In this document: positions 7,830 through 51,545 of the stretch, in pieces
How the letters are laid out: each line of letters begins with the position of its first letter
Numbering within the stretch: position 1 is the stretch's first letter
NCBI GenBank assembly: GCA_038132575.1
Contig: JAYPRP010000002.1
Coordinates: 6,802 to 70,801, forward strand
From: Rhodospirillaceae bacterium
Lineage (GTDB): Bacteria > Pseudomonadota > Alphaproteobacteria > UBA6615
DNA length: 64,000 nucleotides
Direction of reading: 5' to 3'
Made by a program: the position numbers and the translations under genes
The notes under the pieces: model-generated
The model's database searches: none
The model's input: only the letters and a program-made list of their open reading frames with translations
What the model was told of the DNA's origin: nothing

Positions 7830-8933
7830 TTAGAGCTTCAGCAGCTTCGCCGCGTTCTCACCGAGAATGGCGCGTTTCTGTTCGTCGGACAGGTTCGACC
7901 CCATAACGTGGCCCACCGGATCGGTCTCGGCCATGTCGTAGGGATAGTCGGTGCCCATGATCACATGCTCGGCGCCGTAGTGGTTGGCCAGGAACTCGAG
8001 CTGGTCGTGGGTGAAGACCACGCTGTCAAAGTAGAAGCGCTCCAGATACGAACCCGGCCGCTTGCCTGCAGGCAGCTCGCGCTGCATGTCGGCGCGCAGC
8101 GGATGCGCGTGGTCGATGCGGCCCGGATAGGACCCGAGGAAGCCGCCGCCATGGGCGAGTACCACCTTGAGCCCCGGGTGCCGGTCCATCACACCGTCGA
8201 AGATCAGGTAGTGGACCGCAACCGTGGTCGCCAGCGGATTGCCGATGATGTTGGAGAAGTAGTGGTCCGCCAGCCGGTCGCCTTTGGCGAAGCCCGACGG
8301 GTGGATAAAGACGATGACGTCGAGCTCCTCGCACTTAGCCCAGAACGGATCGAGGCCCGCCCTGGAGAGCTCCTGGCCGGCGACGTCGGCATTGATCTCC
8401 ACGCCGCGCATTCCCATGTCTTTCACGGCGCGCTCAAGCTCGGCAACAGCCATCTGCGAATCCTGCAGGGGCACGGTGCACAGGCCGACGAAACGGTCGG
8501 GATGCTCGCCGACTACCTCGGCCAGCTTATTGTTGACCGTCTGCGCCACCTCGCGGCCCAGGTCCGGCTCCGCCCAGTAGCAGTAATGGTTCGGCGCGGT
8601 GGAGATAGCCTGCACGTCGACCCCGGTCGCGTCCATCTCGGCCAGACGCAGGGACGAGTCCGTGATCTTGGGCATGATGTCCTGGCCGTGGGCCATCTGG
8701 AACTTGCGGGTCTCGTCGTTGGCGAACCAGAGCAGCGGCTCGTTCTGGAGATCGAAGACCTCCTTCACCAGTGCGTCCGCCTCGGGGACATGCAGGTGGC
8801 AGTGTATGTCAACCGTGCGCACGCTGAGTTTCTCGACCTTGACGGTATGCCCGCCCGCGTCGCTGGCGGGGGCGTGGGCGGCATGCCCGTGGGGTTGTCC
8901 CTGAAGATGATTGTGGCCACATCTAAAAAGCAT
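7830..8933 (-). CDS. Amidohydrolase-2 family protein, tandem paralog of 6637..7731, 367 aa.
   Basis: DIHCHLHV, HGGG and TDYPYDMAETDPVGHV motifs. About 55% identical to its neighbour by eye. Confidence 0.75.
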   Translation of the reverse strand: MLFRCGHNHLQGQPHGHAAHAPASDAGGHTVKVEKLSVRTVDIHCHLHVPEADALVKEVFDLQNEPLLWFANDETRKFQMAHGQDIMPKITDSSLRLAEMDATGVDVQAISTAPNHYCYWAEPDLGREVAQTVNNKLAEVVGEHPDRFVGLCTVPLQDSQMAVAELERAVKDMGMRGVEINADVAGQELSRAGLDPFWAKCEELDVIVFIHPSGFAKGDRLADHYFSNIIGNPLATTVAVHYLIFDGVMDRHPGLKVVLAHGGGFLGSYPGRIDHAHPLRADMQRELPAGKRPGSYLERFYFDSVVFTHDQLEFLANHYGAEHVIMGTDYPYDMAETDPVGHVMGSNLSDEQKRAILGENAAKLLKL

Positions 8934-9159
8934 GCGTTTTCCTTCCCGGCTTGACGGGTTTGTTTATGGGTCTCGGCACTTATCAGGAGAAATTCCGGTT
9001 CGCCGGCGGACGCGATTATACAGAAGGAAAACCGTGCGCAAAGTGGCTGAAAACAGCCGCCGCTATTCCATCCCTGCGGGCTTGAATGCTATCGTTTGCC
9101 CAATCGGAAAAACAAAATATCGGCGAATTCGCGCGGGTTTCCCGAAGGAGTATCACACC

Positions 9160-11499
9160 ATGGCATCCGGACAGTTCGGAATTTCCCAGCATGTCACGCG
9201 GCGCGAGGACGCGCGGCTGATCACCGGTGGCGGCGCCTACGCCGACGACACCGGCTTCGAGGGACAGGCGTTCGCCGCCTTCCTGCGCGCGCCTATCGGT
9301 CACGGGGTGATCAAATCGGTCGATACGTCGGCGGCGGCGAGCGCGCCGGGTGTGATCGCCGTCTACATCGGACAGGACCTGCGCAACGCGGGCATCGGCG
9401 CGATCCCCAACGTCACGCCGTTCCCGAACCGGGACGGATCCGAGATGCTGCGAACCCAGCGTCCGGCCGTCGCCGTCGACAAGATCTATCATGTGGGCGA
9501 GATCGTCGCGGTGGTGGTCGCCGAGAGCACGGCGCTGGCCCAGGACGCCGTCGACCTGATCGACCTGGACATGGACACTCTGCCGGCGCTGACCGATGTG
9601 CGCGAGGCGGCGAAAGCCGGCGCACTGCAGCTACATGAGAATATCCCCGGCAACGTCTGCCTCGATTTCCAGATCGGCGACGAGGCGAAGGCGAAGGCCG
9701 CGATCGCGGGTGCCGCCCACGTGGTGGAGCTGACACTGACGACCAACCGGCTGGCCGTGGCGGCGATGGAGCCGCGCAGCGCGGCTGCGCGCTTCGACCC
9801 GGCCGCGAATGAAGGCGCCGGGCGATACGACCTGATCACGGGATCCCAGGGCGTGAACGCCATGCGGAACATGCTCGCCGGCGCGATCTTCGACGTGCCC
9901 CATGAGCAGATGCATGTGATGACCAACGATGTAGGCGGCGGCTTCGGTATGAAGACACAGGCCTATCCGGAGTATGTGGCGATTCTGTTCGCGGCGAAGG
10001 CCTGCGGCAAACCCGTCAAGTGGCAGGGCACGCGATCCGAGGCGTTCCTCGCCGACAACCAGGCCCGCGACGGGGTGATGCACGGCACCATGGCCTTCGA
10101 CGAAGACGGGAAAATCCAGGGCTTCCGGGTCAACATGATCGCGGCGATGGGCGGCTATCTCTCGTCCCATGGCCCGGCCGCGGCGACCCGTAACGTCTGC
10201 AACTGCCTGACTGGCTGCTACGACAACCCGGCGCTGGAATTCCAGGTGAAGTGCCTGATGACCAACAACGTCCCCATCGGCCCCTATCGCGGTGCCGGGC
10301 GGCCCGAAGCGGCTTATATACTGGAGCGGATGATGGACCATGCGGCGCGCCAACTCGGAATCGACCGGGTGGAGCTGCGCCGGCGGAACTTCATCAAGCC
10401 CGACCAGATGCCCTACACTACCTCGCTTTCGCAGGTATATGATTCCGGCGAGTTCGAGGCCGAGATGGACAAGGCCCTCGCGCTGGCCGAATGGGACAGT
10501 TTCGAGGAACGCCGCGCGGCAAGCGCAGCCAATGGCAAGCTGCGCGGCATCGGCATGTCCTGCTTCGTGGAGACCGCGGGCGGCATGTTGCAGGAGGGCG
10601 CCAAGCTTGCCATCGGCGAGGACGACACCGTCGAGGCCCGGCTGGCCGTCCAGTCCAACGGCCAGGGACATGTTACCAGCTTCGCGCAGGTCGTGTCCGA
10701 ACTGCTGCAGGTCCCCTACGAGAAGGTGCGCATCATCGAGGGCGACAGTTTCGAGACCCCGGGCACCGGCTTCGCCTCGGTCGCCTCGCGCTCCATGGCG
10801 CTGGCCAGCGGCGCGATCTCACTGACGGCCGACGCCATGATCGACAAGGGGCGTAAACTCGCCGGCCATGTGCTGGAGGCCGCGGAGGCGGACATCGAGT
10901 ATGCGGATGGCACCTTCACCGTCGCCGGGACCGACCGGTCAGTCGACATCTTCGCGCTCGAAGAACAGGCCCGGTCCTTGGGCGACCTGCCCGAGGGCAT
11001 CCCGGACAGTCTCGCGTCGGAAGAGGATTTCGACTCGCCCGAACAGACCTATCCCAATGGCTGTCACATCTGCGAGGTGGAGATCGAGCCCGAGACCGGC
11101 GTCATCGACGTGTTGAGCTATATCGCCGTCGATGATTGCGGCACGGTCATCAACCCGATGATTGTCCACGGCCAGGTGCATGGCGGCGTCGCCCAGGGCC
11201 TCGGTCAGATTCTCGGCGAGCATGCCGTCTATGACGAGGATGGCCAACTGCTGGCCGGCTCCTTCATGGACTACATGATGCCGCGGGCCGACGACATGCC
11301 CGACATGAAGCTCGGCTTCCACTCGGTGCCCTGCACCACCAACCCGGTGGGCGCCAAGGGCGCCGGCGAGGCCGGCACTACCGGTGCGCTGGCTGCCGGC
11401 ATGAACGCCATCGTCGACGCGCTTTCGGTACACGGCATCACCGAATTCGACATGCCGGCCACGCCGCCGCGGGTCTGGGCAGCGCTGAACCGGAACTAG
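9160..11499 (+). CDS. Xanthine dehydrogenase/CoxL-family molybdopterin-binding subunit (form-II CODH-like large subunit), 779 aa.
   Basis: Internal start MASGQFGISQHVTRREDARL of track ORF 8911..11499, preceded by a GAAGGAG RBS. Active-site loop GPYRGAGRPEA and C-terminal GAKGAGEAGT (catalytic Glu). Confidence 0.8.
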   Translation: MASGQFGISQHVTRREDARLITGGGAYADDTGFEGQAFAAFLRAPIGHGVIKSVDTSAAASAPGVIAVYIGQDLRNAGIGAIPNVTPFPNRDGSEMLRTQRPAVAVDKIYHVGEIVAVVVAESTALAQDAVDLIDLDMDTLPALTDVREAAKAGALQLHENIPGNVCLDFQIGDEAKAKAAIAGAAHVVELTLTTNRLAVAAMEPRSAAARFDPAANEGAGRYDLITGSQGVNAMRNMLAGAIFDVPHEQMHVMTNDVGGGFGMKTQAYPEYVAILFAAKACGKPVKWQGTRSEAFLADNQARDGVMHGTMAFDEDGKIQGFRVNMIAAMGGYLSSHGPAAATRNVCNCLTGCYDNPALEFQVKCLMTNNVPIGPYRGAGRPEAAYILERMMDHAARQLGIDRVELRRRNFIKPDQMPYTTSLSQVYDSGEFEAEMDKALALAEWDSFEERRAASAANGKLRGIGMSCFVETAGGMLQEGAKLAIGEDDTVEARLAVQSNGQGHVTSFAQVVSELLQVPYEKVRIIEGDSFETPGTGFASVASRSMALASGAISLTADAMIDKGRKLAGHVLEAAEADIEYADGTFTVAGTDRSVDIFALEEQARSLGDLPEGIPDSLASEEDFDSPEQTYPNGCHICEVEIEPETGVIDVLSYIAVDDCGTVINPMIVHGQVHGGVAQGLGQILGEHAVYDEDGQLLAGSFMDYMMPRADDMPDMKLGFHSVPCTTNPVGAKGAGEAGTTGALAAGMNAIVDALSVHGITEFDMPATPPRVWAALNRN

Positions 11500-17913: not shown

Positions 17914-19320
17914 ATGGCCGACCCAAGCCCCGACTTCTCCGCGATCCCCTCGCTCGACCGCCTGTTGCAGGCGCCGTCGGTCGCCACCCTCGTGGAATCG
18001 CACGGACGCGCCGCGACGACGGCGGCACTGCGCGCGGCGCTCGACGGCGCCCGCGGGACGATCGCGGCGGGCGACGCAGCTGACCTCTCGGAAGATGCCT
18101 TCGCGCGAACGGCGGCGGCGCAACTCGCGCGCGCGGCGGCCCCCGGGCTGCGCCGCGTCTTCAACCTGACCGGCACCGTGCTGCACACAAACCTGGGCCG
18201 GGCGCCGCTGGCCGAAGCGGCAATCGAGGCGATGGCCGAGGCCGCGCGCGGCGCGAGCAACCTGGAATACGATCTCGACAGCGGCAAGCGCGGCGACCGG
18301 GACACCCATGTCGAGGAACTGCTCTGTGAGCTGACAGGTGCCGAGGCCGCGACAGTCGTGAACAACAATGCGGGCGCCGTCCTGCTGCTCCTGAACGCGC
18401 TGGCGCTGCGCAAGGAAGTGCCCGTCTCGCGCGGCGAGCTGGTCGAGATCGGCGGCGCCTTCCGGATTCCCGACATCATGGCGCGGGCGGGCGCCAAGCT
18501 GGTCGAGGTCGGTACCACCAACCGGACCCACGCCCGGGACTTCGAGGGTGCGATCGGCGCCAGGACCGCGCTGGTGATGAAGGTCCACACGTCGAACTAC
18601 ACGGTCCAGGGCTTCACCGCCGACGTGCCCGAGGGCGATCTCGCCGGGATCGCCCACGCGGCGGACATTCCCTTCGCCGTCGATCTGGGTGCCGGGGCGC
18701 TGGTGGATCTCGAGCGCTGGGGCCTGCCCCACGAGCCCACCCCGCGCGAGACGCTGGCGGCGGGCGCGGACATCGTCACCTTCTCCGGCGACAAGCTGCT
18801 GGGCGGCCCCCAGGCGGGGCTGATCGTCGGGCGCGCGGACCTGATCGCGCGGCTCAAGAAGAACCCTCTCAAGCGTGCGCTCCGCTGCGACAAGGCAACC
18901 CTCGCCGCGCTGGCCGCGACCCTGATGCTCTACCGCGATCCCGACCGGCTGGCTGAACGGCTGCCCACGCTCAAGCTCCTGGCGCGTGGGGCGGACGATA
19001 TTCGCGCCGTCGCGGGATCGCTGCGCGACGCGGTTGGCGAGGCCGTCGGCGACGCGTTCACGGTCTCGGTCGAGGACTGCGCCGGACAGATCGGATCGGG
19101 CGCGCTCCCGGTCGAGAGCCTGGGCAGCGCCGCACTGGTCATCCGGCCGGCCGCGGTGCGCGGCCAGGGCGCGAAACTCAAACGGCTGGCGGCATCGCTC
19201 CGCGCCTTGCCCGTGCCGGTCATCGGGCGCGTGCATGACGACGCGCTCTGGCTCGACCTGCGCTGCCTCGACGATACCGACGGCTTCTGCGCCCAGCTCC
19301 AAAATCTGCACACATCATGA
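17914..19320 (+). CDS. selA: L-seryl-tRNA(Sec) selenium transferase (selenocysteine synthase), 468 aa.
   Basis: [15 protein letters not shown] and the PLP-lysine motif [13 protein letters not shown]. Size and order match selA; it is followed by selB with a 4-nt overlap. Confidence 0.9.
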
Positions 19321-21227
19321 TCATCGCGACCGCGGGCCATATCGATCACGGCAAGACCCTGCTCGTGAAATCGCTGACGGGCGTCGACGCCGACCGCCTG
19401 CCGGAAGAGAAAAAGCGCGGCATGACGCTCGATCTCGGCTTTGCGTACACCGACCTCGAGAACGGCGCGCGGCTCGGCTTCATCGACGTGCCGGGCCATG
19501 AACGCCTGGTCCACAACATGCTGGCGGGCGTGACCGGCATCGACTGCGCGCTGCTCGTGGTCGCGGCGGACGACGGCCCCATGCCCCAGACGCTCGAACA
19601 CCTGGCGATCCTCGATATCCTGGGCGTCTCGCGCGGGATGGTCGCGCTCACGAAGATCGACCGGGTGGACGCATCCCGCGTGGCCGAGGTCCGGGACGAG
19701 ATCGAACTGCTGATCTGTGAAACTTCGCTGGCGGGCGCGACGGTGTTCCCGGTCTCGGCGGTCACCGGCGACGGGATCGAGGCGCTGCGGGAAGAAATCG
19801 CCGACATGGCCGCGGTCACCGAGGCGCGCTCCGGCGCAGGGCATTTCCGCCTCGCCGTCGACCGGGTGTTCACCGTCGCAGGCGCCGGCCTGGTGGCGAC
19901 CGGCACCGCCTTCGCCGGCACGGTCTCCCGCGAGGACCGGCTGTGGATCGCGGGGCACGACGTGCAGGCGCGCGTCCGCGGCATTCACGCCAACAACACG
20001 GACAGCGAGACAGGCCGGGCCGGAGACCGGCTGGCGCTCAACCTCGCCGGGCTCGACAAGGACGACATCGCGCGCGGCGACTGGTTGGTGGCCGATTCCG
20101 GGCTCGGGCTCTACCGCAAGCTGGATGTCCGGCTGAACGTGGTCGCCGATGCCAAGAGGCCGCTGCGGCACTGGACCCCCGTCCATGTGCATCTCGGCGC
20201 GCGGAACGTCACCGGCCGGGTGGCGATCCTCGGCGCCGACAGCGCCGCGCCGGGGAGCAACGTACCGGCGCAGCTCGTGCTGGACGCGCCCGTCGGCGCG
20301 TGCGTGCGCGACCGGTTCGTCATTCGCGACCAGTCGGCACAGGTCACGCTCGGCGGCGGGCACGTAGTGGATCTGCATCCGCCGCGCCGGGGGCGCGCCA
20401 GGCCGGAACGCCTCGAGCTGCTCGACGCCCTCGACACGCCCGACGCCGAGACGGCACTTGCCAGCGCACTGGCCCGGTCCCCGACCGGCCTGTCGATCGC
20501 CGACTTCGCGGCGGAGCGCAACCTGACCGAGGCCGAGATGTCCGCCGCTCTTTCGGCGACCGGCGCGGCGTCGGCGGGAACCGGCGCGGATGCGCTTGCG
20601 ATCGCGCAAGACGCCTGGGCCGCGCGGCGCGAGGAGTTGCTCGCCGCCCTCGACCAGTTCCACACGCGCTACCCCGACCGGCTGGGGCCCGCCGCGGCAC
20701 AGCTGCGCAAGAGCGTCGGCCGGTTCATCCCGGAGACCCTGTTCGACGCGGTCAGCGCGAAGCTGGTCGCCGACGGCACCATGTCGAGCGACGGGATGCT
20801 GCTGCACCGCCCGGATCACCGGCCGGGCCTGACGGGCGACGACGCGAAGCGCTGGGAAGCGCTGCAGCCCTATCTGAACGAGACGCCGGCAAGCCCGCCG
20901 GTGGTGCATGACCTGGCCCAGGCCGCCGGCCTCCCGGTCAACGGCGTCGGCAAGACGCTGCGCCAGGCGGTGCGCATGGGGCTCGCCGTGCAGATTGCCG
21001 AGAACCGGTTCTTCCTGCCCGCAGCGCTGCGCGCGCACGCACGGACCTTCGAAGCGATGATCGCCGCCGACGGCAGCGTCGGTGTGTCGCCATTCCGCAA
21101 GGAAGCGGGAATCGGACGGAATCTCGCCGTCGAGTTACTGGAGTATTTCGATCGGGTCGGCCTGTCACAGCGCGACGGGAATGTTCGTCACCAGCTCCGG
21201 CCGGTCGAAGAAGTGTTCGGCGCCTAA
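19317..21227 (+). CDS. selB: Selenocysteine-specific translation elongation factor, 636 aa.
   Basis: N-terminus [22 protein letters not shown] with G-domain motifs DVPGHE and TKID. A long C-terminal extension is consistent with SECIS-binding winged-helix domains. Confidence 0.9.
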
Positions 21228-23121: not shown

Positions 23122-23919
23122 ATGACCATCACCGTGATCCAGACCCTCGACGTGGAGCCCGAACGCATGGAGGAGCGGGACGGCTGGGCAATCTCGGAGT
23201 TCCGGCTGCCGATCACCGGCGAGACCGGGAGCGCGACGACGGTGTTCCACTCGATCTTCCGGCCGGGCTCGACCCACGCCAAGCATCTGCACGAGGTGAG
23301 CGACGAGATCGCGGTGTACCTGTCGGGCCACGGCGTCGTCGGCCAGGGCGAGAGCCGGGCCGTGGTGACCGCCGGGCACTGCCGGCTGATGCCGAAGGGC
23401 TCGGAGCATTTCTTCTATAACGAGACGACCGACGAGGATGCGAAGGTTATCGGCTTCTACATGAATGCGCCGAGCGTCGCGGGCACCGGCTACCAATTCT
23501 GCGGAACGGTGAGCGACGACGACCTGACGCGCGACCGTGACGGCCTCAACGAGGGCATTCTCGTGCGGCTGGAGGAGACCGCGGCACCGGGTGACGGCGT
23601 TCCCGAGGCGTGGCGCGATGCGGCGTTGAAGGCACCCATCGGCGCCCACAACGGCAGCGAGAATTCGCTGGTCCACGCCGCGCTCGCCCCCGGCGCGAAA
23701 ATCGCCGAACACGCGCTGGCCGGGGCCGAGGCGATCTACTACATCGTATCGGGGACCGGGCTGGCCGTGGATGGGGACGGCGAGTCGGCCATCGCGGCCG
23801 ACAGCTTCGTGTTCGTGCCGCGCGGCGCAAGCCACGCGATCCGCAACACCGGCACGGCGGCGCTGGAACTCTATATTGTGCTGACCGGCGCGGGCAGCCT
23901 GGCCGCGGCCGCCGGCTAG
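23122..23919 (+). CDS. Bicupin protein (two cupin domains), 265 aa.
   Basis: Two cupin motif sets (HAKHLHEVSDEIAVYLSGHG and AEHALAGAEAIYYIVSGTG). Confidence 0.6.
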   Translation: MTITVIQTLDVEPERMEERDGWAISEFRLPITGETGSATTVFHSIFRPGSTHAKHLHEVSDEIAVYLSGHGVVGQGESRAVVTAGHCRLMPKGSEHFFYNETTDEDAKVIGFYMNAPSVAGTGYQFCGTVSDDDLTRDRDGLNEGILVRLEETAAPGDGVPEAWRDAALKAPIGAHNGSENSLVHAALAPGAKIAEHALAGAEAIYYIVSGTGLAVDGDGESAIAADSFVFVPRGASHAIRNTGTAALELYIVLTGAGSLAAAAG

Positions 23920-23923
23920 ATAC

Positions 23924-24274
23924 CTAGGCCTTGCTGCGGGTCATCCCGGCCATGCCGCCGATCACGAGCGCCAGCGCATAGCCGAACGGCAGCATCATCA
24001 CGGTCGAAAGGAGCGGCTTCCAGACGAGCACGAAGGGCTCGGGACCGCCGCGCATCACGAAGAGGATGATCGTGACCGCCGCCGCGATGAGAGCGCCGAC
24101 ATAGGCTTCGCGGTGCAGATCGCTGTACCCCTCGAGCCGCCCCGACTTGTGCGAGGTATCCTCGCTCGGGAACACGATCGTGAGCGCAAGGGTTGCGACG
24201 ATCATGACCACCAGCGGCACCACGAACAGAATCAGGTTATCGGGATTGGCGAAAAACTTGGCGACAACTTCCAT
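23924..24274 (-). CDS. Small integral membrane protein, hypothetical, about 116 aa.
   Basis: Start MEVVAKFFANPDN with a GGGGAG RBS. Three to four hydrophobic helices. Confidence 0.45.
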   Translation of the reverse strand: MEVVAKFFANPDNLILFVVPLVVMIVATLALTIVFPSEDTSHKSGRLEGYSDLHREAYVGALIAAAVTIILFVMRGGPEPFVLVWKPLLSTVMMLPFGYALALVIGGMAGMTRSKA

Positions 24275-24300
24275 GACGGCTCCCCTGCCCATACCTCGTC

Positions 24301-24317
24301 GCGTTTCCAAGAAACGC
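24301..24317. promoter_or_regulatory. Perfect palindrome GCGTTTC-caa-GAAACGC in the divergent promoter region between the membrane-protein gene and the redoxin selenoprotein gene.
   Basis: 7-bp inverted repeat with a 3-bp spacer, read directly. Confidence 0.35.
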
Positions 24318-24455
24318 TTGTATACCACTTACAATGCCAGCGTGTGGGGGACAAGCCCAAGCACAATCCGATGATTGCGGCGCATCGCGTTAGGGTGCAC
24401 CATAACTCCGCAATCCGCGCCGGTTTCGGCGCATTTCTCCAGCAAAGGAAGCAAC

Positions 24456-24929
24456 ATGTCAGAGAAACTCGGCATCGGCTCGGCCTTCCCGAAACTGACG
24501 GTTGATCTCGTCGGCGGCGGAACGCTCAGCCTGCCCGATGACCTAGACGCACGGTACCGGGTCATCCTCTTCTACCGTGGCCACTGGTGACCCTACTGTC
24601 GCCGTCAGTTGGTCGGCTTTGCAGAATTGAAAGACGAGTTCGACAAGCTCGGCGCCCAGGTATTCGCCGCCAGCGTCGATCCCGTCGATAAGGCCCAGGA
24701 AGTCGCCGATGAGGTGAACTTCCCCGTCGGACACAGCGTATCCCGGGACATCGCCAACGCGCTCGGCTCCTACTGGGAGGACCGGCGCCGGATCATCCAG
24801 CCTTCGGAATTCATCGTCGGTGCCGACGGCAACGTCGCCGCCTGTTCGTACAGCGACGGCCCGCTGGGCCGGATCGATGCGGCGGACGTCCTCAAGATGG
24901 TGAATTTCTACGATTCCCAGAACAAGTAG
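24456..24929 (+). CDS. Candidate selenoprotein: thioredoxin-fold redoxin (AhpC/TSA/Prx-like) with W-U-P-Y-C active site. TGA at 24588..24590. About 157 aa.
   Basis: Start MSEKLGIGSAFPKL after an AAAGGAAG RBS. Track ORFs 24375..24590 and 24609..24929 share a frame. Read-through: ...RVILFYRGHW-TGA-PYCRRQLVGFAELKDEFDKLGAQVF.... TGA sits at the first Cys of a CxxC motif. Confidence 0.6.
24601..24617 (+). other. Candidate SECIS hairpin GCCG-ucaguuggu-CGGC beginning 10 nt after the UGA of the redoxin gene.
   Basis: Short stem with a G-containing apical loop at the expected spacing. Weak on its own. Confidence 0.25.
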
Positions 24930-24956
24930 GCCGGCACACGCCGGGATAGAAACGAA

Positions 24957-24988
24957 CGCCGCACCGGCCCGCCGGTGCGGCGTTTTTT
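24957..24988 (+). terminator. Rho-independent terminator CGCCGCACCGG-cccg-CCGGTGCGGCG followed by TTTTTT.
   Basis: Perfect 11-bp stem plus T6 tract, 28 nt after the redoxin stop. Confidence 0.8.
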
Positions 24989-25071
24989 CGTACCTGCGAA
25001 ACCAGGACATTTACGCATCCCCGATGGGGGGCTAAGCTCTCAGGAGAACACGGTTCGGGAGGAACAATATA

Positions 25072-25464
25072 ATGATCGCCTATGACCTCAAGGTCGAAGA
25101 GGAATGGAATCCCCAGCGCCACGTCGAGAAAATTCTCGACACGGTGGAGAACGGGGATGTCACCGTCGCCTGCTGGGAGCCGGGACAGGTGAGCCCGAAC
25201 CACTGCCACCCCAACGCGACGGAGATCTACTTCTGCTTCGAGGGTGGCGGCGTGATGCGCACGCCCGACCAGACGATCGACGTCAAGCCGGGTGCCTTCA
25301 TCGTGCACCCCCCGGGCGAACTCCACGAGTATGAGAACGGCCCGCAACGCTCGCTCCTGTTCCGGGTGCGCTACGGCGGCGACTTCTCGACCCGGATCAA
25401 GGACTGGCCCAGCCAGCCCGACTTCGAACGCAGCGACGACGACCGGGCCTACTATCCGGACTGA
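25072..25464 (+). CDS. Cupin domain protein, 130 aa.
   Basis: GGAGGAA RBS. Cupin metal-binding motifs NHCHPNATEIYFCFEGGG. Confidence 0.6.
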   Translation: MIAYDLKVEEEWNPQRHVEKILDTVENGDVTVACWEPGQVSPNHCHPNATEIYFCFEGGGVMRTPDQTIDVKPGAFIVHPPGELHEYENGPQRSLLFRVRYGGDFSTRIKDWPSQPDFERSDDDRAYYPD

Positions 25465-25623
25465 CCAATCGAGGGAGGAATCATACCTGTCCGCAACCCG
25501 AAGCTCGTTGGCATTCTCGCGGCAGCCATAAGCCGAATTTGAGAAAGGCATTCATGAGACTTCGTAAGGCCGGTGTCGGTCCCGCGGCTTGCCCTGCTCT
25601 GCCATCTCGCCGACAATGAAGGT

Positions 25624-25719
25624 GGAGGAGGACCGTTCCCCGGTGGGGCGCCCGGTCTTCAAAACCGGTGAGGGGCGTTAGACGTGCCTGGTGGGTTCGA
25701 CTCCCACCCTCTTCCGCCA
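25624..25719 (+). tRNA. selC: tRNA-Sec (anticodon UCA), 96 nt including encoded CCA.
   Basis: 8-bp acceptor stem GGAGGAGG/CCTCTTCC (one G-U pair). 6-bp D-stem. Anticodon stem CCGGT/ACCGG with loop CTTCAAA (anticodon TCA). Long variable arm. 5-bp T-stem GTGGG/CCCAC with TTCGACT loop. Discriminator G, then CCA. The 8/5 architecture is diagnostic of bacterial tRNA-Sec. Confidence 0.85.
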
Positions 25720-25812
25720 GTTTTCACGCACCCAAGCGCGATCCGGGAAAGACACCCGCCGCCCGGTGTTGATGTTCGCGCGGATGCGAAGCCCGGCAGT
25801 CCCTGAGAGCGC

Positions 25813-28035
25813 ATGACCCCGACCGTCCCGATCACACATGATATTGTCCTGATCGGCGGCGGCCATAGCCATGTGGCCGTCCTCAAGCGGTTCGGCATGA
25901 AGCCCGAGCCCGGGATCCGGCTGACTCTGATCACCCGGGACCTGCTGACACCCTATTCGGGCATGATCCCCGGCTACATCGCCAACCATTACAGCGCGGC
26001 CGAGGCGCATATTGACCTGCGCCCCCTCGCCGCCTTCGCCAACGCCCGGATCATCCACGCGGCGGCGACGGGGCTGGATCTGCAAAACAACTATGTCCAG
26101 GTCGCCGGCCGCCCGTCCGTGGCGTTCGATCTCGTCTCCGTCGACACCGGCTCGACCCCGTCAACGGCAGACATCGTCGGCGCCGGACACGGGTTGCCGG
26201 TGAAACCCATCGACCGCTTCCTTGAAACGTATCACCGCCTGACCGACGAGATCAGGAACCATCGTGGCCCGTTCCACATCACCATTGCGGGTGGCGGCGC
26301 GGGCGGGGTCGAGCTCGCGCTCGCGCTGCGCCACCGGCTGGGGCTGGCGGCACCGGGCCTCGGTAAGCGCCCCGGCGATCTCCGCTTCGCCATCGTCGAG
26401 GCCGCCGATACGCTCTTGCCCGGCTACAACAGGGCGGCCCGCCGCAAGCTCGCCCGCGCGCTCGCGGACCGCGGGATCGCCGTGCAAACCGGCGCGGGCG
26501 TGACACAGGTCGGGCCGGATACGGTGACCCTCGCCGACGGCGGCGTGCTTGACAGTGACAGAACGATCCTGGTGACCTCGGCCGGACCGCCCCACTGGCT
26601 CGCGGACAGCGATGTGGCGCGCGACGACCGCGGCTTCGTGCGGGTCGATGCGACGCTCCGCTCGCCGTCGCATCCGCAACTCTTCGCCACCGGCGACGCC
26701 GCCTCGATGGACGGGCACGCGCTGCCGAAGGCGGGGGTCTATGCCGTCCGCCAGGGGCCTTACCTGGCCGAGAACCTGGGCCGCGCGGCGCGGGGCCGGC
26801 CGCTGCGCAGCTACCGGCCGCAGGGCCAGACCCTGGCGCTCATCACCACGGGCGACAGGTTCGCCATCGCCGCACGCGGCTCGCTCTCCGTTCAGGGCGC
26901 CTGGGTGTGGCGCTGGAAGGACTGGATCGACCGACGCTGGATGCGCAAATACCAGGAGCTGCCGGACATGGATGCGGGCGACGGCGCGGACGGCGACGCA
27001 ACGCTCGAGGCCATGCGCTGTGGGGGCTGCGGCGCCAAGGTGCCGGCCCCGGTGCTCCGCCGCGCGCTCGACCGTTTGCCGCCGCAGGAAATCGAGGGCC
27101 TCGACCAGGGGCTGGATTCACCCGACGACGCAGCGGTCCTCACCCCGCCGCCGGGCAAGGCACTAATCCAGACCGTCGACCAGTTCCGCGCCTTCATCGA
27201 CGATCCCTATCTCTTCGGACGCATCGCGGCCAACCACTGCCTGGGCGATATCTTCGCAATGGGCGCCGAGGCCCATTCAGCACTGGCCGCGGTGATGCTG
27301 CCCCACGGCGAGGACGCGAAGACGTCCGACGATCTCTACCAGCTGCTCGCGGGTGCGACCGAGACCCTTGCAGAGGCCGGCGCGGTTCTCGCCGGCGGCC
27401 ACACCGGCGAGGGTGCGGAGATGGCCTTCGGCCTGACGGTCAACGGCTATGCCGATCCGGACACCATCCTGCGCAAGGGCGGGCTCGCGCCCGGCGACGC
27501 CCTAATCCTCACCAAGCCGCTCGGCACGGGCGTCCTGTTCGCCGCCGACATGCGTGCCAAGGCGGGCGGCGACCATGTGACGGCGGCGTTCGCCTCCATG
27601 CAGCGCTCGCTCGCGCTGGCGATCCCGGTGGTCCGGGACCATGGCGCGCACGCCGCCACCGATGTCACCGGCTTCGGGCTGGCGGGGCACCTGCTGGAGA
27701 TGCTCAACGCATCGGGCGTCGATGCCGAGCTCGAGCTCAACGCGCTGCCGGTCCTGCCGGGCATCGCCGCGCTGGTGGCCGCCGGCCATGAGAGCACGCT
27801 CCGGCCCGGCAACGAGGAGGCGGTCGGCAACGCCGCGCCCGTCTCAGCGCACCCGAACTTCCCGCTGCTGTTCGATCCGCAGACCGCGGGCGGGCTTCTC
27901 GTTGGCGTCCCGAGCGAACGGGCCGAGGCCTGCCTTGACGCGCTCCGCGCCGGCCCCGCGCCGGACGCGACGATTATCGGGCAAGTCACTGCAAGGATGG
28001 GCGACGTCTGCGTGCTGCGCTACGCCGAAACCTGA
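25813..28035 (+). CDS. selD: Bifunctional protein: N-terminal FAD-dependent pyridine-nucleotide-disulfide (NADH dehydrogenase-like) oxidoreductase domain fused to selenide, water dikinase, 740 aa. Cys-type active site.
   Basis: N-terminus DIVLIGGGHSHVAVLK (Rossmann FAD motif) and a second GGGAGGVELA nucleotide-binding motif. C-terminal half has SelD hallmarks: MRCGGCGAKV (catalytic Cys, not Sec) and an AIR-synthase-like fold. Confidence 0.85.
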   Translation: MTPTVPITHDIVLIGGGHSHVAVLKRFGMKPEPGIRLTLITRDLLTPYSGMIPGYIANHYSAAEAHIDLRPLAAFANARIIHAAATGLDLQNNYVQVAGRPSVAFDLVSVDTGSTPSTADIVGAGHGLPVKPIDRFLETYHRLTDEIRNHRGPFHITIAGGGAGGVELALALRHRLGLAAPGLGKRPGDLRFAIVEAADTLLPGYNRAARRKLARALADRGIAVQTGAGVTQVGPDTVTLADGGVLDSDRTILVTSAGPPHWLADSDVARDDRGFVRVDATLRSPSHPQLFATGDAASMDGHALPKAGVYAVRQGPYLAENLGRAARGRPLRSYRPQGQTLALITTGDRFAIAARGSLSVQGAWVWRWKDWIDRRWMRKYQELPDMDAGDGADGDATLEAMRCGGCGAKVPAPVLRRALDRLPPQEIEGLDQGLDSPDDAAVLTPPPGKALIQTVDQFRAFIDDPYLFGRIAANHCLGDIFAMGAEAHSALAAVMLPHGEDAKTSDDLYQLLAGATETLAEAGAVLAGGHTGEGAEMAFGLTVNGYADPDTILRKGGLAPGDALILTKPLGTGVLFAADMRAKAGGDHVTAAFASMQRSLALAIPVVRDHGAHAATDVTGFGLAGHLLEMLNASGVDAELELNALPVLPGIAALVAAGHESTLRPGNEEAVGNAAPVSAHPNFPLLFDPQTAGGLLVGVPSERAEACLDALRAGPAPDATIIGQVTARMGDVCVLRYAET

Positions 28036-28048
28036 CGGCCCGAAACGA

Positions 28049-28074
28049 AAGGCCCTCCCTGACGGGAGGGCCTT
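28049..28074. terminator. Bidirectional terminator hairpin AAGGCCCTCCC-tgac-GGGAGGGCCTT between convergent selD and the grdB-like gene.
   Basis: Perfect 11-bp stem, 14 nt after the selD stop. Confidence 0.6.
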
Positions 28075-28094
28075 CGCGTCAAAGCTGTGTGTAA

Positions 28095-29330
28095 TCAGCC
28101 GTGAATGGTGCGGTGGCGCTGATGGGTCGGAACCATGGCCGTCGGCGCGAGCGCCTTGAAGCCCGGATGCTCGCTCTCCATCGCCCAGTTGCGGATCTCC
28201 ACGAGCACCTTGCCCAGGGTCGTCTCACCCCACAGCCAATTCCCGATGTCCACGTCGGTGACCCGGCCGTCGGGCCGCGCGATCGCCGATTCCATGTAGT
28301 AGTAGCGCATGTCGTCGGCCATCTGCTTGAAGGCCAGATGGACCGGCTTTTCGTCGCCGAACGGTGACGGCGTGTCTTCCCGGTTCACCACGAGGCTGGC
28401 AAGGAACGCGGGAATCTCCTCGGGCGCCTTGCCCGAGATCCCGTAGTTCGTCCGTCCGCCGCGGCTCTGCTTCGATTCCTCGTACCACGGTTTCAGGAGC
28501 GCGATCTCCTGCAACAGCGTCTGCTCGAGCAGTTCCTGATCGCTGACGTCCTCCACCAGTGCCGCGAAGTTGACCGGGCAGGCCCAGCCTTCCTGCTCGA
28601 CGTCCGCGCCCGGCGGGTCGTCGGGGAAGTCTTCCAGGACGGGTCCGGATTCACGCTCCAGCAGGTCCAGGCAATCGCGCAGGACCCGGCGCTGAAACTC
28701 CGGCTCGTTCGGCGCGCCCAGGGGACGGCCGAGCTCGAATGGCACCGCGAGCGCGCGCGGAGGCTTGATTTCCTCGGCATGCTTGCGGATCAGCGCGATC
28801 TGCGTCGTCGGAATGCCTTCGTCTTCGAGATAGTGTGCAAGCCCGCCCACGGCGCGCGTGCATTGGGGTCAGACGGGGACGAGCGCAACCGCGTCGACAT
28901 TGTCCGCCTTGAGGACGCCGGCGAGGTCACGCGCGATGGGTTCCATCACGGTCGGCGGGGTTGCCCCCATGAAGGAGAAGTGCCGGCTCGCGACCGAGCC
29001 GATGACACCCTCTTCGGCCAGTTCGCGCAGGCGGTCGATCGGGAAGGATGTGTTCACGTCCTGATAGAAGCCGCTGCGGTCGAAGTTGGTCGACAGGTGG
29101 CTCATCACCAGGTCGCCCATGTCGTAATCGTCCGGGATGATCCGGTAGTCGCCGGCGCCCGGCGTGAACGGATCGTCCTCGCGCCGGTGCAGACCGGCGG
29201 TCGAGATAAGCGCGACACGGCATTCGTCGAGCGGCTTGGGCGTGACCCATGGCGTGTCGCCGTACTCGGGCAGTTCCTGATTGATCAGCGCCTCGCGCAG
29301 ATGATCAGGCATTTCTCGCAGGTGAACCAT
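28095..29330 (-). CDS. Candidate selenoprotein of the glycine/sarcosine/betaine/D-proline reductase selenoprotein B (GrdB/PrdB) family. UxxC motif with TGA at 28869..28871. About 411 aa read-through.
   Basis: Track ORFs 28869..29597 and 28095..28850 are in the same frame (29597-28850 = 747). Start chosen at MVHLREMPDHL (29330, GGGGAG RBS). Junction ...VDAVALVPV-TGA-PQCTRAVGGLAHYLEDEGIPTTQIALIRKH... gives U-P-Q-C. My by-eye base reading around 28800-28860 differed by one base from the track translation, so the junction follows the track frames. Confidence 0.5.
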
Positions 29331-51147: not shown

Positions 51148-51545
51148 CAAACTGTACTCCGGTTCGCGAGGTCTTCGATGATGGGGCAATCCGGGCGGTC
51201 GTCGCCGTGGCAGGTCTCCGCCAGCTCGACCAGGGTCGCGCGCATCGCCCGCAGTTCGGCGATCTTGGAATCGATTTCCTCGACCCGGTTGAGCGCGATC
51301 TCCTTCACGTCCGCGCTCTTCCGGCCCGTGTCGGCGTAAAGCGCGATGAGCGCCCGGCAGTCTGCCACGGAGAATCCGAGCCCGCGGGCACGCGACAGAA
51401 AGCGCAGCATGTGCACATCACGCTCGGCATAATCCCGGTAGCCATTGTCCCGTCGCCGCGCGGGTGCGACCAGGCCGATATCCTCGTAGTAGCGGATGGT
51501 CTTGGTTGGAAGACCGGCCTGTTCGGCCGCCTCGCTGATATTCAT
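51147..51545 (-). CDS. cueR: MerR-family Cu(I)-responsive regulator (CueR/HmrR-like), 132 aa.
   Basis: Start [25 protein letters not shown] (MerR HTH). C-terminal [10 protein letters not shown] metal-binding loop. Confidence 0.75.

What the first reader, a model, noticed from the sequence alone, without database searches (positions are those of the whole stretch)
24456..24990. Redoxin/Prx-like thioredoxin-fold gene with UGA at the first Cys of its CxxC motif (GHW-U-PYC)
Two same-frame ORFs in the track are separated only by TGA at 24588..24590. The junction reads VILFYRGHW-U-PYCRRQL, a textbook thioredoxin-fold active-site turn with Sec replacing the N-terminal nucleophilic Cys. The second ORF would otherwise need a TTG start and has no RBS, whereas the upstream start at 24456 has a strong RBS. 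A clean intrinsic terminator follows the full-length gene. tRNA-Sec and selD lie less than 1 kb downstream.
Basis: partly seen in the sequence, partly recalled or inferred. Interest (0 to 1): 0.75.

Follow-up and report, generated by a model that had tools for sequence, protein, structure and literature searches.

The report
Known Prx-like selenoprotein gene, correctly spotted
The stop-like TGA inside this small redox-enzyme gene encodes selenocysteine. The gene belongs to the 'Prx-like 1' selenoprotein family catalogued from ocean metagenomes since 2005, so the call is right but the thing is ordinary.

Summary
ATG 24456 to TAG 24929 is one 157-codon frame, interrupted only by TGA 24588-24590 inside GHW-U-PYC. 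Read through, it matches Pfam AhpC-TSA (4.6e-22) across the TGA.

Evidence that the UGA encodes Sec:
- All 80 species-level genomes recovered (Alpha- and Betaproteobacteria, one Gemmatimonadaceae) carry TGA at this codon. Rare homologs carry TGC/TGT.
- dN/dS is 0.16 upstream of the TGA and 0.18 downstream.
- TGA terminates seven other genes checked in the window.
- A hairpin at 24601-24617 (loop AGUUG, 16 nt after UGA) meets the published bacterial SECIS criteria. It is 95% paired across 78 orthologs. It is absent in 21 of 22 Cys-form homologs.
- selA, selB, tRNA-Sec and an Ndh-SelD fusion are all in the window.

The family is already known. Sequences reading 'LFYRGHWuPYCRRQLV' appear in the supplements of the 2005 Sargasso Sea and 2008 GOS selenoproteome papers as 'Prx-like' and 'Prx-like 1' (PF00578, UxxC). 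It has been predicted but never tested biochemically.

The scaffold is peroxiredoxin-like (TM about 0.8), but the active site is thioredoxin-like. Sec sits at the Prx Thr position, and the Prx Pro and Arg are absent.

Side findings:
- A second, PrdB-like selenoprotein gene lies on the minus strand (TGA 28871-28869).
- The Prx-like gene lies within 5 kb of Sec machinery in 37 of 80 species.

The parts
24445..24451 (+). Ribosome-binding site AAGGAAG, 4 nt upstream of the ATG (6 nt after its AGGA core)
   Evidence: Read directly. ATG is conserved at the equivalent start in 93 of 95 ortholog loci.
24456..24929 (+). Full-length Prx-like 1 selenoprotein gene: 157 codons including Sec45, stop TAG 24927-24929
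   Evidence: Pfam AhpC-TSA 4.6e-22 over residues 7-128, and Redoxin 2.8e-13. dN/dS is 0.156 for codons 1-44 and 0.178 for the 90 codons after the UGA.
24588..24590 (+). UGA codon 45, read as selenocysteine (U of the UPYC motif)
   Evidence: TGA in 95 of 96 loci in the first tabulation; the one exception is the TGC Cys form L015. It aligns with TGC/TGT Cys codons in L015, L096, L097 and 22 metagenomic Cys forms.
24597..24599 (+). TGT codon for Cys48, the partner of Sec45 in U-P-Y-C. It aligns with the peroxidatic Cys of canonical peroxiredoxins.
   Evidence: phmmer alignments to PDB peroxiredoxins 6q5v, 2cx3 and 5xbs.
24601..24617 (+). SECIS core hairpin. Stem 24601-24606 pairs with 24612-24617, with a U·U mismatch at 24605/24613 in this clade. 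Apical loop AGUUG at 24607-24611, starting 16 nt after the UGA.
   Evidence: 95.1% of cells paired in 78 distinct orthologs, against 6-55% for slid controls. RNAalifold predicts the same helix. Synonymous sites 15, 21 and 22 are invariant and site 27 nearly so (77 of 78), while other wobble sites vary. The hairpin is absent in 21 of 22 Cys forms. Matched-peptide Fisher p = 4.6e-6.
24596..24624 (+). Extended SECIS. Lower helix 24596-24599 pairs with 24621-24624 and flanks the core. The MFE of the extended element is -10.2 kcal/mol.
   Evidence: The full lower helix is present in 16 of 21 sequences with the U·U mismatch, against 12 of 57 without it (not corrected for phylogeny).
24955..24988 (+). 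Intrinsic terminator: GC-rich hairpin followed by TTTTTT
25624..25719 (+). tRNA-Sec (selC), anticodon UCA
   Evidence: ARAGORN. Rfam RF01852, 71.2 bits, E 1.2e-13.
25813..28035 (+). Ndh-SelD fusion: pyridine-nucleotide-disulfide oxidoreductase domain plus selenophosphate synthetase. Cys type, with CxxC (RCGGCGAK).
   Evidence: Pfam. NCBIfam TIGR03169 445.5 bits and TIGR00476 291 bits. The fusion type is described in PMC2398784.
17914..19320 (+). selA (L-seryl-tRNA(Sec) selenium transferase)
   Evidence: TIGR00474, 587.8 bits against a cutoff of 267.9.
19317..21227 (+). selB (Sec-specific elongation factor, the SECIS-binding protein)
   Evidence: TIGR00475, 457.7 bits against a cutoff of 242.25.

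Best explanation
Window 24456-24929 is a single gene for a 157-residue cytoplasmic selenoprotein. It belongs to the 'Prx-like thiol:disulfide oxidoreductase' family, called 'Prx-like 1' in the GOS survey.

**Translation (inferred from the standard bacterial mechanism).** The ribosome reaches UGA at 24588. SelB, carrying GTP and Sec-tRNA(Sec), binds the mRNA hairpin that begins 10 nt downstream: core 24601-24617, loop AGUUG, plus a lower helix in this clade. SelB delivers selenocysteine instead of allowing termination. The genes for SelA, SelB, tRNA-Sec and SelD are all within 8 kb of this gene.

**Protein (shown by sequence and model).** It has a peroxiredoxin-like thioredoxin fold. The active site is thioredoxin-type: W-U45-P-Y-C48 at the N-terminus of the first helix, and an invariant Gln-Pro116 where peroxiredoxins have their catalytic Arg.

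**Chemistry (inferred, not tested).** Sec45 is the attacking nucleophile. It cycles between selenolate and a Sec45-Cys48 selenenylsulfide, so the protein acts as a disulfide, selenenylsulfide or possibly hydroperoxide reductase, and is recycled by a cellular thiol reductant. The physiological substrate is unknown.
For: **Reading frame**
- One open frame interrupted only by TGA.
- The Pfam AhpC-TSA match spans the TGA.

**Conservation of the TGA**
- Close homologs in the protein database are either truncated at about 105 aa or show a false 'W' at the Sec position.
- Their DNA has the same in-frame TGA and a conserved N-terminus.
- All 80 species-level genome loci carry TGA at this codon.
- Genuine Cys-codon homologs exist.

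**Selection and genetic code**
- Purifying selection is equal on both sides of the UGA: dN/dS 0.156 and 0.178.
- TGA is an ordinary stop for selA, cupin130, Ndh-SelD, the PrdB-like gene, a P-type ATPase, an MFS transporter and a CoA-ligase gene in the window.

**SECIS**
- The hairpin meets the published criteria taken from PMC13188914: 5-nt loop with G at loop position 2 followed by U, 16-nt spacing, MFE -10.2 kcal/mol.
- It is 95% paired in 78 orthologs, and pair 18:26 occurs as GU, AU, GC, UG and UA.
- RNAalifold finds the same helix independently.
- Among sequences encoding the identical CRRQL peptide, Leu is UUR in 51 of 51 Sec forms and 2 of 7 Cys forms, p = 4.6e-6.

**Machinery and family**
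- The Sec machinery is in the window.
- The exact motif is in the published selenoprotein sets.
- The protein is 55% identical to the GOS 'Prx-like 1' read JCVI_READ_286511.
- Fold: pLDDT 92.7, and TM 0.80-0.83 to peroxiredoxins.
Against: - No experimental evidence of selenium incorporation exists for this family. The 2026 review lists it as 'predicted with high confidence', not verified.
- In this window the SECIS upper stem carries a U·U mismatch. The 19-nt core alone folds at only -6.8 kcal/mol. Only the extended element passes the -7.5 kcal/mol threshold.
- The 16-nt spacing is at the lower edge of the published 16-37 nt range.
- Single-sequence folding z-scores are unremarkable, from -1.2 to +0.4. 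The SECIS case therefore rests on comparative data.
- Two Cys-form genes (L096, L149) retain the hairpin, so the hairpin is not perfectly diagnostic of Sec.
- The catalytic chemistry and substrate are inferred from motif and fold only.
- The structure model is of a 66%-identical Cys homolog, not of the window protein itself.
Confidence: 0.93

Rival explanations
1. The TGA is a genuine stop. The locus is a pseudogene or a split gene that yields a 44-residue peptide, with or without a separate 106-residue protein started at TTG 24609.
For: Gene callers annotate exactly this. About 70 of the top 120 homolog clusters are 105-107-aa products beginning at Leu52. A 44-aa ORF is called upstream in several loci.
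Against: - The TGA and both flanks are conserved in 95 loci across two proteobacterial classes.
- dN/dS of the 44 upstream codons is 0.156, the same as downstream. A decaying pseudogene would approach 1.
- There is no RBS before TTG 24609, and that codon sits inside the SECIS apical loop.
- The C-terminal fragment alone would lack the whole active site and the first beta-strands of the fold.
- The Pfam match spans the TGA.
Confidence: 0.02
2. The UGA is decoded without selenocysteine, either as Trp (code 4/25-style reassignment) or by near-cognate read-through with Trp or Cys.
For: Many database homologs show Trp at this position (GHWWPYC).
Against: - Those Trp residues are artefacts. The DNA has TGA and the callers used code 4 on short contigs.
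- TGG never occurs at this codon in the 96 loci tabulated.
- TGA terminates seven other genes checked in this window.
- The genome has about 66% GC, and a dedicated tRNA-Sec, selA, selB and selD lie alongside.
- The conserved, UGA-linked hairpin has no role under this reading.
Confidence: 0.03
3. The TGA is a sequencing or assembly error in place of TGC/TGT or TGG.
For: Only a single-base difference separates TGA from a Cys or Trp codon.
Against: The identical TGA is found in independent assemblies from many projects, including 80 different species-level genomes and several long-read chromosomes.
Confidence: 0.005
4. Functional rival. The protein is a true peroxidase that uses Cys48, at the position of the Prx peroxidatic Cys, as the peroxide-attacking residue. 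Sec45 would be the resolving residue. On this view it is not a general thiol:disulfide oxidoreductase.
For: - Cys48 aligns with the peroxidatic Cys of solved peroxiredoxins.
- The closest structures are all peroxiredoxins, TM 0.80-0.83.
Against: - Three of the four residues of the Prx catalytic signature are missing. Pro is replaced by Arg41, Thr by Sec45, and Arg by Pro116.
- In known Sec-containing Prx the Sec replaces the peroxidatic Cys (TxxU), not the Thr.
- In CxxC/UxxC thioredoxin-fold enzymes the N-terminal residue is the nucleophile (general knowledge).
Confidence: 0.2

Closest known systems
'Prx-like protein' / 'Prx-like 1' / 'Prx-like thiol:disulfide oxidoreductase' selenoprotein family (Kryukov & Gladyshev 2004; Zhang, Fomenko & Gladyshev 2005, PMC1088965; Zhang & Gladyshev 2008, PMC2398784)
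   Same: - PF00578 domain, with a UxxC motif in place of the Prx TxxU.
- Marine and aquatic bacteria.
- Sec forms outnumber Cys forms (22 against 4 in the Sargasso Sea data).
- The supplementary sequences contain the identical active-site string LFYRGHWuPYCRRQLV.
- One GOS read is 55% identical over 130 residues.
   Different: Nothing substantive; this is an ortholog. The published entries were short reads without genomic context. The linkage to selA/B/C/D and the family-wide SECIS covariation shown here were not visible in them.
Canonical peroxiredoxins (AhpC/Prx1, Prx6, BCP/PrxQ), including the Sec-containing Prx (PxxxTxxU)
   Same: Overall fold: TM 0.80-0.83 to Bcp4 3hjp, Aeropyrum pernix Prx and others. 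A Cys (C48) sits at the peroxidatic position.
   Different: It lacks the Pro and Thr of PxxxTxxC and the catalytic Arg (R41, U45 and P116 instead). Sec is at the Thr position, not the peroxidatic position. All NCBIfam peroxiredoxin models score far below their cutoffs, for example 43 bits against 211.
TlpA/ResA/CcmG-type thioredoxin-like thiol:disulfide oxidoreductases (W-C-x-x-C)
   Same: A W-[C/U]-x-x-C active site at the helix N-terminus. A conserved Pro (P116) where thioredoxin-fold oxidoreductases carry their cis-Pro. The cis-Pro equivalence is inferred from alignment and from memory of Copley et al. 2004.
   Different: No signal peptide or membrane anchor, since the N-terminus MSEKLGIGSAFPK is hydrophilic. 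Weak sequence similarity (ResA model 23.7 bits against a cutoff of 170). The structural neighbours are peroxiredoxins rather than ResA or TlpA.
E. coli fdhF SECIS (the archetypal bacterial SECIS)
   Same: A hairpin immediately 3' of UGA inside the coding sequence, with a small apical loop carrying G-U and a stem starting about 10-11 nt after UGA. The fdhF details are from memory. The consensus criteria come from PMC13188914.
   Different: Different sequence. The loop G-U lies 2 nt closer to the UGA. There is no bulged U; this clade has a U·U mismatch instead.

Membership tests
Bacterial selenoprotein gene (UGA recoded as Sec) | In-frame UGA that aligns with Cys in homologs (Sec/Cys pair) | tested here: met
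   TGC in L015 and L097, and TGT in L096, at the same codon. A further 22 distinct Cys-form homologs came from the metagenome scan.
Bacterial selenoprotein gene (UGA recoded as Sec) | Protein-coding conservation on both sides of the UGA | tested here: met
   dN/dS 0.156 upstream and 0.178 downstream over 62 pairs. The Pfam match spans the UGA.
Bacterial selenoprotein gene (UGA recoded as Sec) | bSECIS hairpin: loop 3-9 nt, stem 4-16 bp, G in the first two loop positions, 16-37 nt from UGA, MFE <= -7.5 kcal/mol (criteria from PMC13188914) | tested here: met
   - Loop AGUUG (5 nt, G at position 2 followed by U).
- 6-position stem with one U·U mismatch in this clade.
- Spacing 16 nt.
- Extended MFE -10.2 kcal/mol.
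- 77 of 78 orthologs reach <= -7.5 kcal/mol.
- Comparative support.
- Borderline on spacing, and on core-only energy (-6.8 kcal/mol).
Bacterial selenoprotein gene (UGA recoded as Sec) | Genome encodes selA, selB, selC and selD | tested here: met
   All four are in the window.
Bacterial selenoprotein gene (UGA recoded as Sec) | Selenium demonstrably incorporated (75Se labelling or mass spectrometry) | not testable with these tools
   The family is listed as predicted, not experimentally verified.
Prx-like 1 / Prx-like thiol:disulfide oxidoreductase selenoprotein family | PF00578 (AhpC-TSA) domain | tested here: met
   78.7 bits against a cutoff of 26.
Prx-like 1 / Prx-like thiol:disulfide oxidoreductase selenoprotein family | [quoted passage not shown] | tested here: met
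   U45-P-Y-C48. The family definition is in PMC1088965 and PMC2398784.
Prx-like 1 / Prx-like thiol:disulfide oxidoreductase selenoprotein family | Sequence similarity to published members | tested here: met
   The motif string is found 41 times (HWUPYC) in the GOS supplement and 4 times in the Sargasso supplement. 55% identity, E 1e-52, to JCVI_READ_286511.
Canonical peroxiredoxin | PxxxT/SxxC active-site motif with peroxidatic Cys | tested here: not met
   The aligned segment is R41-G-H-W-U45-P-Y-C48. Pro and Thr are absent and only the Cys is kept.
Canonical peroxiredoxin | Conserved catalytic Arg before the beta-strand 'xFhhD' | tested here: not met
   It aligns with the invariant Pro116 in all three displayed PDB alignments.
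Canonical peroxiredoxin | Peroxiredoxin fold | tested here: met
   Foldseek top hits are all peroxiredoxins, TM 0.80-0.83, E about 1e-12. The model used is that of Cys homolog P0001.
TlpA/ResA-like periplasmic thiol:disulfide oxidoreductase | W-C-x-x-C active site | tested here: met
   W44-U45-P-Y-C48.
TlpA/ResA-like periplasmic thiol:disulfide oxidoreductase | Signal peptide or membrane anchor (extracytoplasmic location) | tested here: not met
   The N-terminus MSEKLGIGSAFPKLTVDLVGGG has no hydrophobic segment (by inspection). No predictor was run.
TlpA/ResA-like periplasmic thiol:disulfide oxidoreductase | Match to family models above cutoff | tested here: not met
   ResA NF002854, 23.7 bits against a cutoff of 170.

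The most novel reading that the evidence does not exclude
The Prx-like 1 selenoprotein may be more than a passenger gene. It could be a working part of selenium utilisation in aerobic Alpha- and Betaproteobacteria. One possibility is a selenenylsulfide redox partner of the flavoprotein (Ndh) domain of the Ndh-SelD fusion. Another is a selenium carrier that feeds SelD.

A weaker version is that it is the 'anchor' selenoprotein co-inherited or co-transferred with selA-selB-selC in these lineages, the role so far ascribed to FdhA.

The basis is linkage. The gene lies within 5 kb of selA, selB, selC or selD in 37 of 80 species, in at least four different arrangements. These include positions 44-240 nt after tRNA-Sec and 98-215 nt before Ndh-SelD. 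None of 25 Cys-form loci shows such linkage. I found no mention of this in the selenoproteome literature I read.
Probability: 0.15. Interest if true: 0.5.

Novelty: already known. Interest (0 to 1): 0.22.

Why it matters
**Biology.** This adds little. It is one more ortholog of a selenoprotein family catalogued in 2005 and 2008.

**Annotation.** The practical value is larger.
- NCBIfam has no model that reaches its cutoff for this subfamily.
- Public databases hold the protein almost only as a 105-aa active-site-less fragment, or with a false Trp at the Sec position.
- The neighbouring PrdB-like selenoprotein is truncated in the same way.
- The family-wide SECIS definition obtained here, GCCGNC-AGUUR-GNCGGC starting 10 nt after the UGA, could be used to re-annotate these genes automatically.

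**A possible lead.** The recurrent placement of the gene beside selC, selAB and Ndh-SelD is modest but testable. It may point to what this uncharacterised family does.

Tried and rejected
- **Rfam scan of 23500-29000 at E <= 10.** Only tRNA-Sec is significant. Rfam reported no SECIS family match here. The ctRNA_pGA1 and miRNA hits at 24912-25009 are just the terminator hairpin.
- **Single-sequence folding of the region after the UGA.** Z-scores ranged from -1.2 to +0.4, which is uninformative on its own. The comparative analysis was needed.
- **Alternative hairpin involving the UGA itself.** This is the GACC..ACUG/CAGU..GGUC centroid, and the small helix at columns 4-17. All of its positions are invariant, so there is no evidence for or against it. 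I did not adopt it.
- **Structure prediction of the window protein with U replaced by C.** I used the natural Cys homolog P0001 instead.
- **Genuine Trp at the Sec position in homologs.** Rejected at the DNA level.
- **Canonical peroxiredoxin or Sec-Prx (TxxU).** Rejected on active-site residues.
- **NCBIfam SelL-related and PrxU models.** Only 21-25 bits against cutoffs of 120-270.
- **fdhA in the window.** I looked for it as the usual companion of selABC. The large molybdopterin ORF at 8911-11499 is of the xanthine-dehydrogenase/aldehyde-oxidase type, not FdhA.
- **The model's coordinates could not be inspected.** The Sec45-Cys48 distance and the cis conformation of Pro116 are therefore unverified.
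Full report
**1. The observation**

The sequence is as described.
- ATG 24456 opens a frame that runs to TAG 24927-24929. Its only interruption is TGA at 24588-24590, and the junction reads VILFYRGHW*PYCRRQLVGF.
- The mechanical ORF list shows two same-frame pieces, 24375..24590 and 24609..24929. The second starts at TTG.
- AAGGAAG lies at 24445-24451, 4 nt before the ATG (6 nt after its AGGA core). Nothing resembling a Shine-Dalgarno sequence precedes TTG 24609.
- A GC-rich hairpin at 24955-24984, followed by six T, ends the gene.
- tRNA-Sec is at 25624-25719 (ARAGORN; Rfam 71.2 bits against a gathering score of 47).
- A SelD-containing fusion gene is at 25813-28035.

**2. Is the UGA read through?**

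With U replaced by C, the 157-residue product matches Pfam AhpC-TSA at 4.6e-22 over residues 7-128. The match spans the UGA. It also matches Redoxin at 2.8e-13.

A search of 5.8 billion proteins returned three kinds of close relative.
- Fragments of 105-107 aa, 70-97% identical, covering only the C-terminal two-thirds.
- Proteins of about 156 aa reading GHWWPYC.
- A few reading GHWCPYC.

I checked each kind in the DNA.
- Upstream of the truncated genes in L001-L010 is the same in-frame TGA and a conserved N-terminus.
- The 'W' forms have TGA in the DNA. The callers had used a TGA=Trp code on short contigs.
- The 'C' forms have real TGC or TGT codons.

A scan of one genome per species returned 80 loci. 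They come from Rhodospirillaceae, Hyphomicrobiaceae, Defluviicoccus and other Alphaproteobacteria, from Burkholderiales and other Betaproteobacteria, and from one Gemmatimonadaceae MAG. The best match is a marine Rhodospirillaceae MAG at 97% identity. Every one of the 80 has TGA at this codon.

Three further results bear on the rival readings.
- Against the window, the 44 codons before the UGA have dN/dS 0.156 and the 90 codons after it 0.178 (62 pairs). The upstream part is therefore translated and selected as protein.
- ATG is conserved at the start in 93 of 95 loci.
- TGA terminates selA, the 130-aa cupin gene, Ndh-SelD, the PrdB-like gene, a P-type ATPase, an MFS transporter and a CoA-ligase gene in this window. 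The organism has about 66% GC.

Together these exclude a pseudogene, a split gene, a TGA=Trp code and a sequencing error.

**3. The SECIS element**

Positions are numbered with the U of UGA as 1. In 78 distinct Sec-type sequences:
- wobble positions 6, 9, 12, 18 and 33 vary freely;
- positions 15 (Arg49 always CGC), 21 (Gln always CAG) and 22 (Leu always UUR, never CUN) are invariant, and position 27 (third base of codon 53) is C in 77 of 78.

These constrained sites define a hairpin: G14-C15-C16-G17-N18-C19, loop A20-G21-U22-U23-R24, then G25-N26-C27-G28-G29-Y30. In the window this is 24601-24617.

The comparative evidence is as follows.
- 95.1% of cells form standard pairs, against 6-55% when the 3' partners are slid by 1-3 columns.
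- Pair 18:26 occurs as GU 27, AU 14, GC 11, UG 3 and UA 2, with 21 sequences unpaired.
- No shuffle out of 500 reached the observed pairing percentage or covariation score. The tool warns that related sequences inflate that control.
- RNAalifold predicts the same helix independently.

I compared the hairpin with the published bacterial SECIS criteria (PMC13188914).

| Criterion | Published | Window |
|---|---|---|
| Apical loop | 3-9 nt | 5 nt, AGUUG |
| Upper stem | 4-16 bp | 6 positions with one U·U mismatch |
| G in first two loop positions | required | G at position 2, followed by U |
| Spacing from UGA to loop | 16-37 nt | 16 nt |
| MFE | <= -7.5 kcal/mol | -10.2 kcal/mol for the extended element |

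77 of 78 orthologs reach <= -7.5 kcal/mol.

The window's clade has a U·U mismatch at 18:26 (24605/24613). This clade has a full 4-bp lower helix (24596-24599 with 24621-24624) in 16 of 21 sequences, against 12 of 57 elsewhere (Fisher p = 1.3e-5, not corrected for phylogeny).

The key control asks whether the hairpin follows the UGA or merely the amino-acid sequence.
- A metagenome scan for the Cys-codon version gave 22 distinct true homologs. 21 of them lack the hairpin.
- Among sequences that encode the identical [U/C]P[Y/F]CRRQL peptide, Leu is UUR in 51 of 51 Sec forms and 2 of 7 Cys forms (p = 4.6e-6). Arg49 is CGC in 51 of 51 against 4 of 7 (p = 0.0011).
- The two Cys forms that keep the hairpin (L096, L149) are the closest Cys relatives. 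They look like recent Sec-to-Cys conversions with a fossil SECIS.

The TTG that gene callers use as a start (24609) is Leu52 and lies in the SECIS apical loop.

**4. The decoding machinery**

The window carries the full set:
- selA at 17914-19320 (TIGR00474, 588 bits);
- selB at 19317-21227 (TIGR00475, 458 bits), overlapping selA in ATGA;
- selC (tRNA-Sec);
- an Ndh-SelD fusion with the CxxC active site, RCGGCGAK. This is the type described as abundant in marine samples (PMC2398784).

**5. What kind of protein it is**

- An AlphaFold model of the natural Cys homolog P0001 (66% identical) is confident: pLDDT 92.7, pTM 0.88. Residue 45 sits immediately before helix 46-57.
- Its nearest solved structures are all peroxiredoxins: Bcp4 3hjp, Aeropyrum pernix Prx, Prx1 and Prx6 types. 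TM is 0.80-0.83 at 17-23% identity.
- The active site is not a peroxiredoxin's. In the alignments to PDB peroxiredoxins, 'DFTPVC' aligns with 'GHWUPYC'. Sec45 takes the place of the conserved Thr and Cys48 that of the peroxidatic Cys. The Prx Pro is Arg41. The catalytic Arg aligns with the family-invariant Pro116 in the QPSEF motif.
- W-[C/U]-x-x-C plus a conserved Pro at that position is the signature of thioredoxin-like thiol:disulfide oxidoreductases. The cis-Pro equivalence is from my memory of Copley et al. 2004. I could not inspect the model's geometry.
- There is no signal peptide or membrane anchor by inspection.
- No NCBIfam model reaches its cutoff. The best is 43 bits against 211.

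My reading is a cytoplasmic redox enzyme on a peroxiredoxin scaffold. Sec45 is the nucleophile and cycles through a Sec45-Cys48 selenenylsulfide. The substrate is unknown. A peroxidase role that uses Cys48 remains a minority possibility.

**6. Comparison with what is known**

[quoted passage not shown] It reports 22 Sec and 4 Cys sequences (PMC1088965).
- The GOS paper lists 'Prx-like 1, pfam00578, UxxC' with 225 selenoprotein sequences (PMC2398784).
- Searching their supplementary files for the window's motif found it directly, for example 'VLFYRGHWuPYCRRQLVAFEEHK...' and 'EYKVILFYRGHWUPFCRRQLVGFEEQK...'.
- One GOS read is 55% identical to the window protein over 130 residues, E 1e-52.
- A 2026 review still lists 'Prx-like thiol:disulfide oxidoreductase, PF00578, UxxC' under 'predicted with high confidence' rather than experimentally verified (PMC13188914).

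The family, and this subfamily, are therefore already known. What remains unknown is its biochemistry.

**7. Seen along the way**

- **A second selenoprotein gene.** The 251-aa ORF on the minus strand next to selD (28850..28095) is the tail of a 411-codon gene starting at 29330. It has an in-frame TGA at 28871-28869 in ALVPV-U-PQCTR. Read through, it matches the PrdB model at 1.4e-35, well below that model's cutoff. It resembles the GOS 'PrdB' reads.
- **Linkage to the Sec machinery.** The Prx-like gene lies within 5 kb of selA, selB, selC or selD in 37 of 80 species, in at least four arrangements:
  - the window's island layout;
  - selA-selB-selC followed 44-240 nt later by the Prx-like gene;
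  - convergent with selC-selB-selA in Burkholderiales, 93-113 nt away;
  - 98-215 nt upstream of Ndh-SelD in Hyphomicrobiaceae.
- None of 25 Cys-form loci (160 kb in total) has any Sec gene nearby.
- The papers I read name fdhA, or selD where fdhA is absent, as the selenoprotein gene that accompanies selABC. They do not mention this linkage. It may simply reflect co-inheritance of a minimal Sec island. A functional tie to SelD is possible but unsupported.

**8. Verdict**

The gene is a real but ordinary member of a known selenoprotein family. Its main practical significance is that current annotation pipelines systematically truncate or mistranslate it.

Noticed in passing
window 28095-29330, minus strand (TGA at 28871..28869): A second selenoprotein gene. 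It is a PrdB-like protein of 411 codons with an in-frame TGA in ALVPV-U-PQCTR. Gene callers report only the 251-aa part after the TGA. Read through, it matches TIGR04483 PrdB at 1.4e-35, 123 bits against a cutoff of 300, so it is PrdB-like rather than a PrdB equivalog. A hairpin follows the TGA. It resembles the GOS 'PrdB' selenoprotein reads.
   Followed up: partly
window 17914-21227 (selA, selB), 25624-25719 (selC), 25813-28035 (Ndh-SelD): A complete selenocysteine island within about 12 kb: selA-selB (ATGA overlap), an MBL-fold gene, a bicupin, a small membrane protein, the Prx-like(U) gene, a cupin, tRNA-Sec, Ndh-SelD (Cys type, CxxC), and the PrdB-like(U) gene on the opposite strand. The same order is kept in the related MAG contigs L001-L010, L016-L024 and L079.
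   Followed up: yes
loci L016-L095, e.g. L049 4787-5468, L045 5001-5676, L062 5001-5600: The Prx-like(U) gene lies within 5 kb of selA, selB, selC or selD in 37 of 80 species, in at least four different gene orders. Often it is only 44-240 nt from tRNA-Sec or about 100-200 nt upstream of Ndh-SelD. Cys-form loci show no such linkage. I did not find this in the selenoproteome papers read, which name fdhA as the usual companion.
   Followed up: partly
proteins P0004, P0006-P0029 etc.; loci L011-L014: A database artefact. About 40 of the top 120 homolog clusters carry Trp at the Sec position (GHWWPYC) because TGA was translated with code 4 on short contigs. About 70 more are 105-107-aa truncations named 'redoxin domain-containing protein' or 'peroxiredoxin'. 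No NCBIfam model covers the subfamily above its cutoff.
   Followed up: yes
L096 4133-4165 and L149 (Cys-form genes): Two genuine Cys-codon orthologs (TGT and TGC) retain an intact SECIS-like hairpin, CGC CGA CAG TTR GTY GGC. These are probable recent Sec-to-Cys conversions with a fossil SECIS.
   Followed up: partly
window 24605 and 24613: The window's clade has a U·U mismatch inside the SECIS upper stem. 57 of the 78 Sec-type orthologs have a standard pair at this position. The mismatch goes together with an extra 4-bp lower helix (24596-24599 with 24621-24624). Whether the mismatch has a role in SelB recognition, like the bulged U of E. coli fdhF, is unknown.
   Followed up: partly
protein P0002 (JGI, 226 aa): A homolog with Arg at the Sec position (GHWRPYC) and an unrelated C-terminal extension. 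It is probably a sequencing or frameshift artefact, with CGA in place of TGA.
   Followed up: no
window 24609-24611: The TTG that mechanical ORF finders and public gene calls use as the start of the 'second ORF' is Leu52 of the full protein. It lies in the SECIS apical loop. Its UUR form is conserved for the RNA, not as a start codon.
   Followed up: yes
window 48856-51189, minus strand: A heavy-metal P-type ATPase with N-terminal YHS and HMBD domains. Elsewhere in the window are a xanthine-dehydrogenase-type molybdoenzyme (8911-11499) and an Ldh_2 dehydrogenase (4728-6560). None of them appears related to the selenium island.
   Followed up: no
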